A stretch of DNA of 64,000 nucleotides, taken from the sequence record OQ939939, one strand, 5' to 3'. The stretch is from Escherichia phage SUT_E1620. The position numbers and the translations under genes were made by a program. The notes under the pieces were generated by a model. It saw only the letters and a program-made list of their open reading frames with translations. It was not told the origin of the DNA and made no database searches. Below are positions 39,568 through 64,000 of this stretch, piece by piece (the first letter of the stretch is position 1; the number at the start of each line of letters is the position of its first letter).

Positions 39568-40026
39568 TTAAACTGGATACAGTTCAGCTTTGAAAGCGGC
39601 TCTAACCTCTATGGCCTCTTCTAGAGAACTGCACTGTTGGTACTTACGAACACCATGCTTCTGCATCAACACACAGTATTTTTCACCGCGCATGTAGATA
39701 TTGGGTTCACCTAACTTATTATCTTTCCGCACGTCTATGTTGTGCATTTGATCAGATCTATTGGAATCTTCTAGGTTCTCAATAAAATTACAGTCTTTTA
39801 TTCTATTCTTGTGGTCTATTTCTTCGGGAATATAGCCCTTATGATATAGAAATACTAGCTGATGCTCTCCCCAATGACGACGTTTGAATCCAATTCTGAT
39901 ATACCCTTTGTGCTTACCGCCAGCAAATTGACCTATTAGTCTCTTCTGTGTGGTTTTCTTCCATTTAAGATGTCCGGTTTCAGGATCATACTCAAAGGCT
40001 TCTCTAACTTCCTCTTGAGTTATCAT
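39568..40026 (-). CDS. HNH homing endonuclease
   Basis: 152 aa; YIRIGFKRRHWGEHQLVFLYHKGYIPEEIDHKNRIKDCN HNH motif; AP2-like C-terminal segment. Confidence 0.65.
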   Translation of the reverse strand: MITQEEVREAFEYDPETGHLKWKKTTQKRLIGQFAGGKHKGYIRIGFKRRHWGEHQLVFLYHKGYIPEEIDHKNRIKDCNFIENLEDSNRSDQMHNIDVRKDNKLGEPNIYMRGEKYCVLMQKHGVRKYQQCSSLEEAIEVRAAFKAELYPV

Positions 40027-43560: not shown

Positions 43561-44067
43561 TTACTGGATTGATTCCCTACCGTATAATTGACCTCTAAAC
43601 ATCTTGGCCATAGAACATGCAACCTCATAGTTGTCATATGTTCCTTTAACTATACGTTTACGGTTAATAGTAAATACTACTTGCCAATTCTTACTACCAG
43701 AAGGGTAAACATGCATTCCTTTCTTATATTTGATATTTCTTAGATTACCGGATACTGTTTGCTCTCTAAGATTTTCAATACGATCATCACCTTTTATAGT
43801 ATTCACATGATCTACTAAATCAGGTAAGTATCCATGATGCATTAAAAATATTGCTCTATGCCGAAGCATAGTCCTATTCCCTAGAGATATACGATAATAT
43901 CCGTTACCCGTAGAAACACAACATTCTTTCCCTGCATTTCTTCCTGTAGTTCTAAATAACTTACCATCTTCATATCGGAAGTTATCTAAAAGTTCTTGCT
44001 GTGTGAATGACATCCTCACCTCCAATACATATATTATTACATAATCCATCCAAATTGTCAACGACAA
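43561..44067 (-). CDS. HNH homing endonuclease
   Basis: HNH motif (HRAIFLMHHGYLPDLVDHVNTIKGDDRIENL); probable start at internal Met (MSFTQQ, about 44013) preceded by GGAGG. Confidence 0.6.
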   Translation of the reverse strand: MSLTIWMDYVIIYVLEVRMSFTQQELLDNFRYEDGKLFRTTGRNAGKECCVSTGNGYYRISLGNRTMLRHRAIFLMHHGYLPDLVDHVNTIKGDDRIENLREQTVSGNLRNIKYKKGMHVYPSGSKNWQVVFTINRKRIVKGTYDNYEVACSMAKMFRGQLYGRESIQ

Positions 44068-59523: not shown

Positions 59524-60225
59524 ATGAAATTCAAGCCCTTTGGTATGCTGGACATTGAATCTCTAGGTACTCCAGGAAATTGCGGTACTACTCATATTGC
59601 AATGCCTTCTTTCGCTTTTGTAGCGATGCACGGAATTGATAAAGATCCTGATCTGGTATTCGTTACTCTAGACGTTCAAGATCAGCTTAATGCGGGTGCT
59701 AAGGTAACTGCCTCTACTATTGCATTCTGGATGGATCAAGCTAAAAACAGTCCATCTGCGCTCCATATTATGGAGGCTCTAAATGGTCGTAATCCTAAAC
59801 TGATTGCCTTCCGTGATGGTAAGCATCACTGCACTAATGACGTAGGCTCTAATTATGCTGCCTTCTCTATGGCTCAGAACATTATGGAATTGTCTCTAGG
59901 AGATAATGCTCTGTATTACGGCAATGGCCCAGAGTTTGATATGACAATCTACTCTGCAAATACGTTCCATGCCGGAACCAATGAAGAAATAGTTCCGTGG
60001 AAATTCTGGAACTTAGGTAACGTTCGATCTTTCCGTAATCAGTGGATGCAAGCTGGTTATAGCTATAAAGATCTAGAAGCCGAAGGTGCTAGCTGGGCAA
60101 AAGCTAAAATGGAAAAAATGGACACCATTCGTTATGGAATCTACCCTGTGAAGCATGATCCAGCATTCGATGCTTTAGTTGAAAGTTATTGTGTAGCCGT
60201 CATGATCGAAAAAATCAAAATTTGA
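59524..60225 (+). CDS. putative DEDDh-family 3'-5' exonuclease
   Basis: 233 aa; N-terminal MLDIESLG (Exo I D-x-E) and C-terminal HDPAFDA (Exo III H-x4-D). Confidence 0.45.
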   Translation: MKFKPFGMLDIESLGTPGNCGTTHIAMPSFAFVAMHGIDKDPDLVFVTLDVQDQLNAGAKVTASTIAFWMDQAKNSPSALHIMEALNGRNPKLIAFRDGKHHCTNDVGSNYAAFSMAQNIMELSLGDNALYYGNGPEFDMTIYSANTFHAGTNEEIVPWKFWNLGNVRSFRNQWMQAGYSYKDLEAEGASWAKAKMEKMDTIRYGIYPVKHDPAFDALVESYCVAVMIEKIKI

Positions 60226-60226
60226 T

Positions 60227-60255
60227 TTGCTTTCAGCTCCAAAATTCTGTATAAT
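60227..60255 (+). promoter_or_regulatory. T5-type early promoter
   Basis: TTGCTTTCAG...-17-TATAAT followed by TTCATAAATTTGAGAGAACAACAAAAGGAAAACAA leader. Confidence 0.55.
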
Positions 60256-60295
60256 ATATTCATAAATTTGAGAGAACAACAAAAGGAAAACAATT

Positions 60296-61198: not shown

Positions 61199-61520
61199 AC
61201 GAAAGCCCAAGCATCTTACCTCGCAGCAGCGGTTGAAATACGAGGTTAAATAAGACCGCTGACCATACTATAAGGTATAATCTATTGGAGATTATGTTTA
61301 TTACATCAGACATTTAATCTGACACGTAAAAACAAAAGGTCGTTGGTAGTACCAACACAACTTCAAAGATCAACGCTCAAGTATGAAAGCTGAAAAGTTA
61401 AAAGCACTCAAACTTCTAACCTTCTAAAGCTAAAAGATGCAAAGTATTCGTTGATGATTCAAACCCTAGATCAAAGGTACATGGCTCATAAGATATGGCC
61501 TGTGGCGCCTCTAGGCTGTT

Positions 61521-61537
61521 TATCGGTTTACTAGTCT
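61521..61537 (+). repeat. right arm of 17-bp inverted repeat
   Basis: TATCGGTTTACTAGTCT. Confidence 0.6.
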
Positions 61538-61555
61538 CTCAATTTAAAAATGTAT

Positions 61556-61584
61556 TTGCTAATTAGTTTAGTTTTCTGTATAAT
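61556..61584 (+). promoter_or_regulatory. T5-type early promoter
   Basis: TTGCTA-17-TATAAT. Confidence 0.55.
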
Positions 61585-61614
61585 ATATTTTTAAATTGAT
61601 GAGACGAGGCTCCT

Positions 61615-61932
61615 ATGACTTTACATATTTTGTTTGATGATGTACGTGACTTAAATGGAATGGATATCATCATCAGAAACCCTGATGTAGCGTACGAAAT
61701 GCTCTATCAGTTACAACTCCAGGGTAATTATCTTTATTTAGATAATGACATGGGTAGTAAAGTAGAAGGCCACCATTTGTTAAGTCGTATCCTAGAAGAT
61801 AAAGATTTGTACCCTAAAAAGGTGGTTTTAGTCACCAGCAATTCTGTTGCTGCAGAAAATATGCGCCAACAGTTAAAAACAGCTGGTTATCAAGAAAACC
61901 CCAATCGTATTGAGTACGATTGGCAGGAGTAA
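61615..61932 (+). CDS. hypothetical protein with receiver-domain-like pattern
   Basis: 105 aa; ILFDDVRD ... YLDNDMG ... VVLVTSNS ... K pattern loosely resembles CheY-like receiver fold; own promoter. Confidence 0.3.
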   Translation: MTLHILFDDVRDLNGMDIIIRNPDVAYEMLYQLQLQGNYLYLDNDMGSKVEGHHLLSRILEDKDLYPKKVVLVTSNSVAAENMRQQLKTAGYQENPNRIEYDWQE

Positions 61933-61936
61933 ATAA

Positions 61937-62461
61937 ATGGAAATAACCCAGGAAAACCTATTATCCTTATTTCACTACAATAGTGAGGAAGGTAGATTGT
62001 ACTGGAAAGCTAATCCCAATAAAGCCCCTGCATGGAATGCCAAATGGGCGGATAAGCCTGCTGGGGCTAAAGATGGGAAATCAATAGTAGTGTCCATTGA
62101 TAATAAATCATACAGACACCATAGATTAGTATTTTTATATCATAAAGGATACTTACCAGTACAAGTTGATCATAAAGATAGGACTAGGCATGACACTAAT
62201 CCTTTCTGCGATAAAATAGAAAATCTCAGAGACGCCACTCATTCACAAAATAATGCTAATAAAGATATTGGGAAGGCCAATACTTCTGGCTATAAAAATG
62301 TGTATAAAACACATCAAGGGTGGAGGGTTATTGTAAAGAAAGATAAAAAGCCTATAGAGGGCGGAACCTTTCTTAGTCTAAAAGAAGCGGTAGATGTAGC
62401 AAATGATTTAAGGTTTGACCTATTCGGTGAATTTGCACTATACCAGCCGTATAAGGAGTGA
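61937..62461 (+). CDS. HNH homing endonuclease with AP2-like domain
   Basis: 174 aa; SYRHHRLVFLYHKGYLPVQVDHKDRTRHDTN HNH motif; C-terminal YKNVYKTHQGWRV AP2-like. Confidence 0.65.
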   Translation: MEITQENLLSLFHYNSEEGRLYWKANPNKAPAWNAKWADKPAGAKDGKSIVVSIDNKSYRHHRLVFLYHKGYLPVQVDHKDRTRHDTNPFCDKIENLRDATHSQNNANKDIGKANTSGYKNVYKTHQGWRVIVKKDKKPIEGGTFLSLKEAVDVANDLRFDLFGEFALYQPYKE

Positions 62462-62465
62462 TACT

Positions 62466-62915
62466 ATGTTGAAAGTATTACTCCTGCTGGCCACTACTAT
62501 AAGTAGCTTACCTGCTTATGCCACACATGATGCTAAAGAGATAGACTGTATTGCAAAAAACATCTATTTTGAGAGTCGTGGTGAGGGCACTAAAGGAATG
62601 ATCGCAGTTGCACAGGTTACTAAAAACCGTGTTAACTCTGGTACTTTTCCTGATTCTTACTGTAAAGTAGTATATCAGTCTAACCAGTTCTCTTGGGTGG
62701 CCAAGAGACCAAAAGTTGATAAAACCGATGAGGCTTGGCAAGTTGCTAAGAATTTAGCTAGAGTGATATACTACGTTGATTTACCACAAGATCCAACACA
62801 TGGAGCGTTATACTTCCATAGTGGTAAAGATAAACCGTACTGGACAAAGAAGTTTAAGAAAACAACGAAGATTCAAGGCCATACGTTCTACAAGCCTGTG
62901 GTTAAGAAAACTTAA
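62466..62915 (+). CDS. secreted SleB-family cell-wall hydrolase
   Basis: signal peptide MLKVLLLLATTISSLPAYA; CIAKNIYFESRGEG...VAQVTKNR...YCKVVYQSNQFSW signature; start set at ATG after AGGAGTG (track ORF begins 17 codons earlier). Confidence 0.6.
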   Translation: MLKVLLLLATTISSLPAYATHDAKEIDCIAKNIYFESRGEGTKGMIAVAQVTKNRVNSGTFPDSYCKVVYQSNQFSWVAKRPKVDKTDEAWQVAKNLARVIYYVDLPQDPTHGALYFHSGKDKPYWTKKFKKTTKIQGHTFYKPVVKKT

Positions 62916-62924
62916 AAATTCGAT

Positions 62925-62953
62925 TGCTTAAAGCCTTAAATTTCTGTATAATA
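62925..62953 (+). promoter_or_regulatory. T5-type early promoter
   Basis: TTGCTT-17-TATAAT followed by TTCATAAATTAATGAGAGG. Confidence 0.55.
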
Positions 62954-62984
62954 CTTTCATAAATTAATGAGAGGAAGCGAAATA

Positions 62985-63155
62985 TGAAATCAGTTGTAAT
63001 TATTGGTGTTAATACTCGTGGTATCCGTACTACGAAAACAGTTAAAACTACTAACGTTGCTGAAATTACTACAAACCCTAAGAAGTTTGATTTCGCTAAA
63101 GTCTCGGCAGTTATGACAGAACAATCTTTTAACCAAGCACTGGGAATTAAATAAT
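62985..63155 (+). CDS. small hypothetical protein (about 56 aa), absent from ORF track
   Basis: ATG preceded by GAGAGGAAG and a T5-type promoter; below the 60-aa track cutoff; coordinates approximate. Confidence 0.3.
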
Positions 63156-63597
63156 GGAAGAGAATATTCTAGATGTTTTGCGTAGGGCTTTGCAGGAATC
63201 TAAGGTTGATGGTTCTGATAAAGAAGTAGCTAAAAGCTACCAGACCATAATCGGAGATCTTCAGCGTGTTGATAAAGACTTCATTACTTCTGAACAGTTT
63301 GTATCTTATCTAAAAGCTCAACTGAAAAGCATTAATCAGACGAAAGCTAAACTTCACGGTCAAGACCTTGATAATTATAGCTTGCAGTCTGCTCAGTATG
63401 AGTATATACTGAACAAATGGCTACAACAGTATCTGCCGCCTCAGTTATCTGATTCTGAGATTCGCAAATACTTTGCAGAATTAGTTAAGTTGAACCCTGG
63501 GATTACAAAAGGTATGCTGATGAAAGCGATTAAGGAAGAGTTTCCTGGTCGTTACGACGGTGGCATTGCTGCTCAGGTTGCTGGCGAATTTAATTAA
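63154..63597 (+). CDS. GatB/YqeY-domain protein
   Basis: 147 aa; C-terminal GITKGMLMKAIKEEFPGRYDGGIAAQVAGEF resembles YqeY/GatB C-terminal domain. Confidence 0.45.
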   Translation: MEENILDVLRRALQESKVDGSDKEVAKSYQTIIGDLQRVDKDFITSEQFVSYLKAQLKSINQTKAKLHGQDLDNYSLQSAQYEYILNKWLQQYLPPQLSDSEIRKYFAELVKLNPGITKGMLMKAIKEEFPGRYDGGIAAQVAGEFN

Positions 63598-63605
63598 AAA
63601 TTGAT

Positions 63606-63634
63606 TTGCTAAACGCCTCAAAATTCTGTATAAT
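63606..63634 (+). promoter_or_regulatory. T5-type early promoter directed into an ORF-free region
   Basis: TTGCTA-17-TATAAT followed by AGATTCATAAATTAGAG. Confidence 0.55.
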
Positions 63635-63889
63635 AGATTCATAAATTAGAGAACAGCGAGCCGATTACGCTGAGTGAGTTTAGTGATTCCTACTAGGATA
63701 GCTATTCCACTGAATAGAGTCGGTGAGTTGGAGACTAGTAAGTACTCTGAGAGAGGCTACGAGCTAACGCTTATTGCTATTGATAGGGAACTGAAAATCT
63801 GCGGAAAACTCGGGAGCTGTCCCGAAATCTCGTAAACTCTTCTCTAGTTTATGTTAGTGGGGTGTCGAACTGACTTATGTGATAACACT

Positions 63890-63961
63890 GCCGTCCTAGT
63901 ATAAACGGTAATATCAAACCGTAACTGGTGGAAGATGCAGGTTCGAATCCTGCGGTCGGAA
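63890..63961 (+). ncRNA. tRNA-like element (canonical T-arm, incomplete cloverleaf)
   Basis: GCAGG-TTCGAAT-CCTGC T-arm, U8-like and GG D-loop-like positions; acceptor pairs only 5 of 7; no canonical anticodon arm found by hand. Confidence 0.25.
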
Positions 63962-64000
63962 AGAATCAGATAACTCGGGCTTATACCGGATAAGCATTCG

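What the first reader, a model, noticed from the sequence alone, without database searches (positions are those of the whole stretch)
61937..62915. Secreted SleB-like cell-wall hydrolase in the early region, coupled to an HNH endonuclease
The hydrolase has a cleavable-looking signal peptide (MLKVLLLLATTISSLPAYA) and SleB-family motifs, so it is exported to the periplasm independently of a holin. It sits in the early region far from any lysis cassette and immediately downstream of, and overlapping, a homing-endonuclease gene, suggesting cargo mobilised with the endonuclease. It could aid DNA entry, superinfection exclusion or lysis from without rather than end-of-cycle lysis.
Basis: partly seen in the sequence, partly recalled or inferred. 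Interest (0 to 1): 0.45.

Follow-up and report, generated by a model that had tools for sequence, protein, structure and literature searches.

The report
T5-like phage secreted hydrolase, HNH insertion
This is the already-annotated, exported SleB-type cell-wall hydrolase found in T5-like phages; the neighbouring HNH gene is a rare selfish insertion that brought a new upstream gene copy and a new signal peptide, not the hydrolase itself.

Summary
The window is a T5-like phage (Epseptimavirus, about 99% identical to Salmonella phage S132 and E. coli phage Ace). The sequence features are real. An intact HNH_3 gene lies at 61937-62461. A 149-aa Hydrolase_2 (SleB/CwlJ-fold) protein lies at 62466-62915, with a typical cleavable signal peptide and the catalytic Glu. 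The claimed overlap is not real: the hydrolase starts at ATG 62466, four bases after the HNH stop, behind an AAGGAG ribosome-binding site.

The hydrolase is not cargo of the endonuclease. It matches in all 441 related phage records, whereas the HNH is in only 13. In phages without the HNH the hydrolase follows a cREC_REC-domain gene directly. The HNH start codon now occupies the hydrolase's old start site.

What travels with the HNH is a roughly 980-bp block (about 61600-62580). It holds a deeply divergent cREC allele, the HNH, a new ribosome-binding site and the first 38 or so hydrolase codons, including a different signal peptide. The block is 99.4-100% identical in phages whose flanks differ by up to 10%, as expected for homing with co-conversion.

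The hydrolase's role is inferred: an early, Sec-exported, holin-independent accessory peptidoglycan-cleaving enzyme. The gene is known and annotated but uncharacterised. Interest is low to moderate.

The parts
61556..61584 (+). Sigma-70-type early promoter (TTGCTA, 17 nt, TATAAT) of the cREC, HNH and hydrolase operon. It is part of a promoter module repeated in the region.
   Evidence: 10 of 12 consensus matches. Similar modules lie at about 60208-60278, 62906-62987 and 63592-63655. Function is inferred from the consensus only.
61615..61932 (+). cREC_REC-domain gene (105 aa). This is the divergent allele found only in the HNH-carrying haplotype.
   Evidence: PF20274 E=1.9e-12. It is 100% or 99.6% identical in the same 13 records that hold the HNH, and at most about 58% aa identical to every other allele in the phage records and in 5.8 billion proteins. 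Ordinary alleles differ by only about 8% aa between T5 and Seafire.
61886..61936 (+). A 45-50-nt island conserved (94%) between HNH-plus and HNH-minus alleles. It covers the cREC 3' end, the GGAG ribosome-binding site and the stop codon, and contains the hairpin 61901-61923. It forms the left edge of the HNH insertion.
   Evidence: The hairpin shows no convincing covariation.
61937..62461 (+). Free-standing HNH_3 homing endonuclease gene (174 aa). Its ATG occupies the position of the hydrolase ATG in HNH-less phages.
   Evidence: Present in 13 of 441 related records, all at least 99% identical and all at this locus. Its paralogues elsewhere are at most 49% identical. Junction alignment.
62454..62459 (+). 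AAGGAG ribosome-binding site for the hydrolase, supplied by the 3' end of the HNH gene.
   Evidence: Read directly from the sequence. It lies 6 nt upstream of ATG 62466.
62466..62522 (+). Signal-peptide coding segment (MLKVLLLLATTISSLPAYA), an allele unique to the HNH haplotype.
   Evidence: Only 37% aa and 49% nt identical to the Seafire signal peptide MKAALLLIAALTYSFNSHA, which has the same length and the same cleavage position. At least 99% identical copies occur in exactly 13 records.
62466..62915 (+). Hydrolase_2 (SleB/CwlJ-fold) secreted peptidoglycan hydrolase precursor, 149 aa. The predicted mature protein is residues 20-149, the catalytic Glu is E36, and the conserved Cys pair is C28 and C66.
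   Evidence: dN/dS is about 0.10 against T5.
61600..62580 (+). The co-inherited block: cREC variant, HNH, new ribosome-binding site and the first 38 or so hydrolase codons. On both sides the sequence is about 97-100% identical per 30-nt window to HNH-less Seafire.
   Evidence: Sliding identity. The block is 99.4-100% identical among five HNH-plus phages whose flanks are 90-98.6% (left) and 98.0-98.5% (right) identical to the window. HNH-less Seafire and INF11 have closer flanks, at 98.8-99.2% and 99.7-99.8%.

Best explanation
Two separate things sit side by side in an early operon of a T5-like phage.

(1) The hydrolase. Gene 62466-62915 is the conserved SleB/CwlJ-fold (Hydrolase_2) peptidoglycan hydrolase of the T5 group.
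- It is transcribed from a sigma-70-type early promoter and translated from its own ribosome-binding site.
- It is exported by the Sec pathway and cleaved after Ala19.
- It probably folds in the periplasm with a C28-C66 disulfide.
- By analogy with SleB, it most likely cuts glycan strands as a lytic transglycosylase, using Glu36.
- It needs no holin. It most likely acts as an accessory wall-weakening or wall-remodelling enzyme alongside the holin, M15-endolysin and spanin cassette encoded over 20 kb away.

(2) The HNH gene. Gene 61937-62461 is a sporadic free-standing homing endonuclease.
- It has landed exactly on the hydrolase's start codon and taken over that translation start.
- It supplies a new ribosome-binding site, a new start codon and a new signal peptide for the hydrolase.
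- It spreads between co-infecting phages by cleavage and recombinational repair.
- Its immediate flanks (a whole divergent cREC allele and 38 or so hydrolase codons) are too different to recombine, so the ~980-bp block always moves as one piece.

Shown here: the domains, the fold, the conserved residues, the distribution, the junctions and the mosaic boundaries. Inferred: export, enzymatic chemistry, time of expression, biological role and endonuclease activity.
For: Hydrolase identity:
- PF07486 E=4e-26.
- The only PDB relatives by sequence and by fold are SleB catalytic domains (model pLDDT 93.4).
- E36 aligns with the Glu of the SleB 'ESRGE' motif, which by recalled literature holds the catalytic Glu. 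It is kept in 111 of 112 homologues.

Export:
- 102 of 108 full-length homologues pass a crude test for the n/h/c layout of a signal peptide.
- Two signal-peptide alleles only 37% identical keep the same length and an Ala at -1.
- C28 is kept in 109 of the 112 homologues and C66 in all 112; both are invariant in the 56-sequence alignment. Bacillus SleB has Leu and Ser at those positions.
- One homologue is a chromosomal gene of a bacterium, in a housekeeping context.

Core gene under selection:
- The locus is present in 441 records.
- dN/dS is about 0.10 against T5.

Location:
- The gene lies in the early region with promoter.
- The lysis cassette is about 21-24 kb away.

HNH as a homing element:
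- Intact HNH_3 domain, present in 13 of 441 records.
- The same 13 records hold the variant cREC, as shown by the record lists. The variant hydrolase 5' end also occurs in exactly 13 records, though that list was not fully printed.
- The insertion sits at the hydrolase ATG.
- The block is nearly identical across different flanking backgrounds.
- No intermediate cREC allele exists in 5.8 billion proteins.
- The HNH-less junction sequence is absent from the window.
- The same operon carries other HNH insertions in other phages.
Against: - No signal-peptide predictor could be run and no experiment exists.
- Spore SleB needs muramic delta-lactam, which E. coli and Salmonella walls lack, so the substrate and bond cleaved are unknown.
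- The protein scores far below the SleB equivalog cut-off (50.8 against 236.5 bits).
- An enzyme secreted early and active on the wall might be expected to lyse cells prematurely. A Vequintavirinae homologue was reported as toxic in E. coli (PMC7344957).
- No knockout, expression-timing or fitness data for the T5 gene were found.
- HNH activity and its target site are untested. The mosaic pattern could also arise from ordinary module exchange.
Confidence: 0.7

Rival explanations
1. One reading: the hydrolase is cargo carried and mobilised by the homing endonuclease.
For: The two genes are adjacent, separated by only 4 nt, and the hydrolase's ribosome-binding site lies inside the HNH gene. The first 38 or so codons of the hydrolase do move with the HNH.
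Against: The locus holding the hydrolase gene matches in all 441 related records, and the HNH in only 13. HNH-less phages, including T5, have the hydrolase at the same site. From codon 40 onward the gene is 99.4% identical to that of HNH-less Seafire.
Confidence: 0.03
2. The mosaic block is ordinary module exchange between T5-like phages. On this view the HNH is a passive or inactive passenger rather than the driver.
For: T5-like genomes are mosaic. The block boundaries coincide with the points where homology resumes, which any recombination would produce. Endonuclease activity was not tested.
Against: The HNH_3 domain is intact and the ORF is full length. The block is nearly identical (99.4-100%) across flanks that differ by up to 10%, which implies recent spread. 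The variant cREC and the variant leader are never seen without the HNH. The operon has attracted at least three independent HNH insertions.
Confidence: 0.2
3. The hydrolase is a membrane-tethered signal-anchor-release (SAR) endolysin, or the phage's main endolysin, held inactive until the holin fires.
For: RefSeq and PHROG label it 'endolysin'. Sec-dependent endolysins exist. A homologue in Certrevirus phages sits next to a candidate holin (PMC7344957).
Against: The hydrophobic core is only 12 residues, is Leu-rich rather than Gly/Ala-rich, and is followed by P-A-Y-A with a -3/-1 cleavage motif. These phages carry a canonical holin plus M15 endolysin plus spanin cassette elsewhere. No holin-like gene is adjacent.
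Confidence: 0.1
4. The secreted enzyme has a non-lytic role, for example remodelling the wall to exclude superinfecting phages, to support cell enlargement, or to counter an envelope-linked defence.
For: It is predicted to be expressed early and sits apart from the lysis genes. It is strongly conserved. In another unclassified phage a homologue also sits among early nucleotide-metabolism genes.
Against: No direct evidence of any kind. T5-like phages already block their receptor with Llp (annotation; PMC9586334).
Confidence: 0.2
5. The protein helps DNA entry or acts from the virion (lysis from without).
For: None beyond its muralytic fold.
Against: The gene lies more than 40 kb from the pre-early genes, so by the known T5 two-step injection it is expressed only after genome entry. 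A Sec signal peptide is incompatible with cytoplasmic virion assembly. The limited AKFV33 virion proteomics lists only four structural proteins and does not include it.
Confidence: 0.02

Closest known systems
Bacillus spore cortex-lytic enzyme SleB (catalytic domain, PDB 4F55 and 4FET) and CwlJ
   Same: Same Pfam family (Hydrolase_2) and the same fold (TM 0.78-0.80, rmsd 2.3-2.6 A, 30-32% identity). The Glu of the ESRGE motif is conserved.
   Different: It lacks the N-terminal peptidoglycan-binding domain. It scores far below the SleB equivalog cut-off. It has a Cys pair that SleB lacks. It works in a host without spores or muramic delta-lactam, so its substrate specificity must differ.
SleB-like 'cell wall hydrolase' genes of other Gram-negative phages (T5, AKFV33 ORF81, Vequintavirinae CB7_83 and CR3_087, Pakpunavirus and others)
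   Same: These are single-domain Hydrolase_2 proteins with an N-terminal signal peptide, encoded apart from the main lysis genes (PMC3326045, PMC7344957, PMC11180984). The window protein is 100% identical to GenBank entries of S132 and Ace.
   Different: Only the signal peptide allele differs, and it is linked to the HNH. In Certrevirus a candidate holin overlaps the gene, which is not the case here.
Sec-exported and SAR endolysins (fOg44 Lys44, P1 Lyz, phage 21 R21; named from memory)
   Same: Export of a muralytic enzyme by the host Sec system without a holin pore.
   Different: This protein has a short, Leu-rich signal peptide with an A-x-A site and is therefore probably cleaved, not a membrane anchor. 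It also coexists with a canonical holin and endolysin pair.
Free-standing phage homing endonucleases (T4 MobE and SegB; the T5 HNH nickases are recalled from memory and were not checked)
   Same: An HNH gene inserted between conserved genes without breaking them. It has a sporadic distribution, co-conversion of flanking markers, and a diverged flank that removes the presumed target (PMC2790892, PMC2330249, PMC2988022).
   Different: The co-inherited flanks are unusually divergent: a whole gene at 56% aa identity and a recoded signal peptide. The element has also taken over the downstream gene's translation start and supplies a replacement.

Membership tests
Hydrolase_2 / SleB-CwlJ cell wall hydrolase family (PF07486) | Profile match above the curated cut-off | tested here: met
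   91.9 bits against a cut-off of 27, full profile 1-100
Hydrolase_2 / SleB-CwlJ cell wall hydrolase family (PF07486) | SleB catalytic-domain fold | tested here: met
   AF2 model with pLDDT 93.4. Its only significant PDB matches are 4FET and 4F55, with TM 0.70-0.80 on target length
Hydrolase_2 / SleB-CwlJ cell wall hydrolase family (PF07486) | Catalytic Glu in the (Y/F)-x-E-(S/A)-R-G-E motif | tested here: met
   E36 aligns with the SleB motif. It is present in 111 of 112 homologues and invariant in A3
Spore SleB proper (TIGR02869 equivalog) | Equivalog score and the N-terminal PG-binding domain | tested here: not met
   50.8 bits against a cut-off of 236.5, and only model positions 83-201 are matched. 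It is therefore not an orthologue of spore SleB
Spore SleB proper (TIGR02869 equivalog) | Lytic transglycosylase activity dependent on muramic delta-lactam | not testable with these tools
   Needs muropeptide analysis of digested sacculi
Sec (signal peptidase I) secreted protein | Tripartite signal peptide: basic n-region, 7-15 residue hydrophobic core, small residues at -3 and -1 | tested here: met
   M-L-K / VLLLLATTISSL / P-A-Y-A|T by inspection. A crude rule is met by 102 of 108 homologues. No trained predictor was available
Sec (signal peptidase I) secreted protein | Demonstrated export and cleavage | not testable with these tools
   Needs PhoA fusion or N-terminal sequencing
SAR (signal-anchor-release) endolysin | Long, weakly hydrophobic Gly/Ala-rich N-terminal membrane segment with no cleavage site | tested here: not met
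   The core is 12 residues, Leu-rich and without Gly, and is followed by an A-Y-A site
Canonical lysis-cassette endolysin | Encoded next to holin and spanin genes | tested here: not met
   In S132 the hydrolase lies at 68.2 kb, whereas the holin and endolysin lie at 91.7-92.8 kb and the spanin at 89.5 kb
Free-standing HNH homing endonuclease | HNH nuclease domain, intact ORF | tested here: met
   PF13392 at 35.1 bits against a cut-off of 24.8; PHROG 99 E=4e-49
Free-standing HNH homing endonuclease | Sporadic presence at one locus between conserved genes, which remain intact | tested here: met
   13 of 441 records, always between cREC and the hydrolase, with both neighbours intact
Free-standing HNH homing endonuclease | Co-conversion of flanks and horizontal spread | tested here: met
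   The block is 99.4-100% identical in backgrounds whose flanks are 90-98.6% identical. Flanks of HNH-less phages are closer to the window
Free-standing HNH homing endonuclease | Site-specific cleavage of the element-free allele | not testable with these tools
   Needs in vitro cleavage or a co-infection cross

The most novel reading that the evidence does not exclude
The homing target may be the start of the hydrolase gene itself, meaning its translation start and signal-peptide codons. On this reading the HNH element survives there because it carries a ready-made replacement (ribosome-binding site, ATG and a recoded but functional signal peptide) together with a deeply divergent cREC allele from an unsampled phage lineage. 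It would be a natural example of a selfish endonuclease exploiting the sequence tolerance of signal peptides. Separately, the conserved early-secreted hydrolase may have a non-lytic role in the infected cell envelope.
Probability: 0.25. Interest if true: 0.5.

Novelty: already known. Interest (0 to 1): 0.27.

Why it matters
The main value is corrective. The hydrolase is a core gene of T5-like phages, not something delivered by the endonuclease.

It also matters for annotation. Databases label the gene 'endolysin', 'spore cortex-lytic enzyme precursor' or 'hypothetical protein', although these phages have a separate holin and endolysin cassette and the function of this gene has never been tested.

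Two modest points of interest remain. First, a conserved, early, Sec-exported wall hydrolase in a model phage family has no known role, and a knockout in T5 would test it easily. Second, the ~980-bp HNH block is a clean natural example of homing with co-conversion. It swaps a whole upstream gene and a signal peptide without breaking the operon, and it predicts where the endonuclease should cut.

Tried and rejected
- Overlap of the two genes: rejected. The TTG 62415 start is only the first possible start codon in the ORF listing, and the ATG at 62466 has the ribosome-binding site and matches the near-identical homologues.
- Donor lineage of the divergent block: not found. A scan of IMG/VR with the HNH protein gave only one distant relative at 34% identity. 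A search of 5.8 billion proteins with the variant cREC gave nothing between 99% and 58% identity.
- Hairpin 61901-61923 as a conserved regulatory RNA: six-sequence consensus folding gave no covariation term and several broken pairs. It may simply follow from the NPNRIEYDW codons, so it was left as a passing note.
- Experimental data on the T5 gene: the CRISPRi-ART paper and its 49 supplementary files have no entry under 'cell wall hydrolase', 'SleB' or similar terms. The HIDEN-SEQ main text had no hits for T5-like phages, cell wall hydrolase or endolysin. Proteomics papers on T5-like phages do not mention the gene in virions.
- A functional link between cREC and the hydrolase: the adjacency holds in T5-group phages but not in a Klebsiella T5-like phage or in other phage families, so it was not pursued.
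- A tRNA at the window end: ARAGORN calls none in 63500-64000.
- A second Hydrolase_2 copy in the window: none found.

Full report
**What the window is**

Region 61400-63700 is 98.6-99% identical to Epseptimavirus phages of the T5 group (Demerecviridae, Markadamsvirinae). Examples are Salmonella phage S132, E. coli phage vB_EcoS_Ace and Salmonella phage falkor, and 441 phage records match in all.

The S132 annotation was mapped onto the window.
- The window runs from the late tail genes through the replication genes into the early nucleotide-metabolism block (nrd, frd, thyA, RNase H).
- It ends at the edge of the tRNA cluster.
- The finding lies in that early block.

**The observation**

ORF 61937-62461 encodes a 174-aa protein with an HNH_3 domain. 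The Pfam match is PF13392 at 35.1 bits against a cut-off of 24.8, and PHROG 99 'HNH endonuclease' matches at E=4e-49.

The next gene encodes a 149-aa Hydrolase_2 protein (PF07486, E=4.3e-26, complete profile).
- Its only relatives among solved structures are the catalytic domains of Bacillus SleB, 4F55 and 4FET.
- An AlphaFold2 model built on 56 homologues (pLDDT 93.4) also matches only those structures, with TM 0.70-0.80 on target length and rmsd 2.3-3.0 A.
- Glu36 aligns with the Glu of the SleB ESRGE motif. It is present in 111 of 112 homologues.

The claimed overlap with the HNH gene is not real.
- The listed ORF start, TTG 62415, is only the first possible start codon after a stop.
- The real start is ATG 62466, 4 nt after the HNH stop codon. 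It is preceded by AAGGAG at 62454-62459.
- Every annotated relative uses this ATG.

**Signal peptide**

No trained predictor was available, so this rests on inspection and comparison.
- MLK / VLLLLATTISSL / PAYA|T has the classical basic, hydrophobic and A-x-A layout.
- The 12-residue Leu-rich core is too short, and of the wrong composition, for a signal-anchor-release (SAR) membrane segment.
- Of 108 full-length homologues from phages and metagenomes, 102 pass a crude tripartite rule.
- The common T5-group allele, MKAALLLIAALTYSFNSHA|T, is only 37% identical to the one here. It nevertheless has the same length and the same Ala at -1, which points to selection for export rather than for sequence.
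- C28 is kept in 109 of the 112 homologues and C66 in all 112; both are invariant in the 56-sequence alignment. They are Leu and Ser in Bacillus SleB. This fits a periplasmic disulfide, but that is an inference.
- One homologue, P0105, is an ordinary chromosomal gene of a bacterium. The family is therefore not restricted to spores or phages.

**Relation to the lysis genes**

In S132 the hydrolase lies at 68.2 kb. The holin and the M15-type endolysin lie at 91.7-92.8 kb, and a spanin lies at 89.5 kb, beyond the tRNA cluster. That position corresponds to sequence outside this window.

The literature already notes this 'second endolysin far from the holin' in Salmonella T5-like phages (PMC11180984) and a 'cell wall hydrolase SleB' in the early region of AKFV33 (PMC3326045). 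A signal peptide on the homologue of Vequintavirinae phage CB7, reported as toxic in E. coli, is also described (PMC7344957). I found no experiment on the T5-group gene.

**Is the hydrolase cargo of the endonuclease? No.**

- The HNH gene occurs in only 13 of the 441 records, always at this locus and always at least 99% identical. The locus that includes the hydrolase matches in all of them.
- In HNH-less phages (Seafire, INF11, TrudiGerster, T5) the hydrolase ATG follows the stop codon of the upstream cREC_REC-domain gene by 5-8 nt. It uses a GGAG inside that gene's 3' end.
- In the window the HNH ATG sits in that very position, as ...GGAGTAAATAA-ATG. The hydrolase has been moved 529 nt downstream, behind a new ribosome-binding site.

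**What does move with the HNH**

Against HNH-less Seafire the window is about 97-100% identical per 30-nt window up to about 61590 and again from about 62580. Between those points lie four things.
- A cREC allele with only 50-60% nt and 56% aa identity.
- A 45-nt conserved island.
- The HNH gene.
- The first 38 or so hydrolase codons. The signal peptide is 49% nt identical. Codons 20-39 are 68% nt but 80% aa identical, with synonymous sites saturated.

The variant cREC occurs, at 99.6% or more, in the same 13 records that hold the HNH. The variant hydrolase 5' end also occurs in exactly 13 records, although that list was not fully printed. No intermediate cREC allele exists even among 5.8 billion proteins, where identity drops from 99% to at most 58%. 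Ordinary cREC alleles differ by only 8% aa between T5 and Seafire.

Among five HNH-plus phages the block is 99.4-100% identical to the window.
- Their left flanks are 90.0-98.6% identical to the window and their right flanks 98.0-98.5%.
- The HNH-less phages Seafire and INF11 have closer flanks, at 98.8-99.2% and 99.7-99.8%.

The block is therefore younger than its surroundings and moves between backgrounds. This is the expected footprint of a free-standing homing endonuclease with co-conversion (T4 mobE and segB; PMC2790892, PMC2330249). The flanks next to the HNH are too divergent to recombine, so crossovers can resolve only where homology resumes. That explains why the block is always inherited whole.

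Two further observations fit this picture. The junction sequence of HNH-less alleles is absent from the window, consistent with self-immunity. The same small operon carries other HNH insertions elsewhere: one fused in frame to cREC in JLBYU43, and one upstream of the promoter in falkor.

Endonuclease activity and its target were not tested. Plain module exchange therefore remains a rival, at about 0.2.

**How the hydrolase most likely works (inference)**

- It is transcribed from the TTGCTA-17-TATAAT promoter at 61556-61584 together with cREC and, in this phage, the HNH.
- It is exported by Sec, cleaved after A19, and acts in the periplasm as a SleB-type glycan-strand-cleaving enzyme using Glu36.
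- It needs no holin.
- Purifying selection (dN/dS about 0.10 against T5) shows that the gene matters to the phage.
- Its role is most simply that of an accessory wall-weakening or wall-remodelling enzyme. A non-lytic role is not excluded.
- A role in DNA entry is excluded. The gene lies more than 40 kb from the pre-early genes, so by the known T5 two-step injection it is expressed only after the whole genome has entered. An exported protein also cannot be built into virions.

**Comparison and novelty**

The protein is a member of Hydrolase_2 by profile, fold and catalytic residue. It is not an orthologue of spore SleB, because it has no PG-binding domain and scores 50.8 against the 236.5-bit equivalog cut-off. 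It does not meet the features of a SAR endolysin or of a cassette endolysin.

The exact protein is already in GenBank, under the names 'endolysin' and 'spore cortex-lytic enzyme precursor'. The object is therefore already known.

The description of the HNH block here is a modest addition of a known kind. It covers the element taking over the hydrolase's translation start, supplying a recoded signal peptide, and carrying a deeply divergent upstream gene. Overall interest is low to moderate.

Noticed in passing
window 60208-60278, 61543-61609, 62906-62987, 63592-63655: A promoter-containing module of about 55-75 nt is repeated before successive early operons (76-84% alike). The copies at 61543-61609 and 63592-63655 contain TTGCTA-17-TATAAT, typical of strong T5 early promoters.
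   Followed up: partly
window 39577-40023 (-) and 43576-44013 (-): Two further HNH paralogues lie here, 31-32% aa identical to the one at 61937. The S132 annotation also shows a homing endonuclease between nrdA and nrdB. Related genomes hold up to nine such copies.
   Followed up: partly
L011 685-1506 (Escherichia phage JLBYU43); L003 3148-3660 (falkor, equivalent to window ~61535): The cREC-hydrolase operon is a hotspot for HNH insertions. In JLBYU43 an HNH_3 domain is fused in frame to the N-terminus of cREC_REC (273 aa). In falkor another HNH_3 gene sits just upstream of the operon promoter.
   Followed up: partly
window 61901-61923: A perfect 9-bp hairpin, CCAATCGTA-TTGAG-TACGATTGG, lies in the last codons of cREC, just before the ribosome-binding site. 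It sits inside a 45-nt island that stays 94% conserved although the rest of the gene is about 55% identical. Six sequences gave no convincing covariation.
   Followed up: partly
window 61615-61932: The upstream gene is a cREC_REC 'cyclic-phosphate processing receiver' domain protein (PF20274). It is conserved in about 449 phage records and has no known function. GenBank calls it 'hypothetical' or, wrongly, 'HNH endonuclease'.
   Followed up: partly
window 63154-63597: This is a YqeY-like protein (25.4 bits, just below the Pfam cut-off of 27; PHROG 1460 'tRNA amidotransferase'). It is named inconsistently in GenBank as 'recombination related exonuclease', 'carbon-nitrogen ligase' or 'YqeY domain protein'.
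   Followed up: no
window 63930-63960: There is a tRNA T-arm-like sequence (GGTTCGAATCC) near the window end, but ARAGORN calls no tRNA in 63500-64000. Relatives annotate an odd 'tRNA-Sec(TCA)' or 'tRNA-OTHER' nearby.
   Followed up: partly
L016 3305-3748, L017 6001-6444; L018 6001-6624: A 45%-identical Hydrolase_2 homologue sits among early and nucleotide-metabolism genes of another, unclassified phage. Another homologue is a stand-alone chromosomal gene next to formate dehydrogenase and malic enzyme genes in a bacterium.
   Followed up: partly
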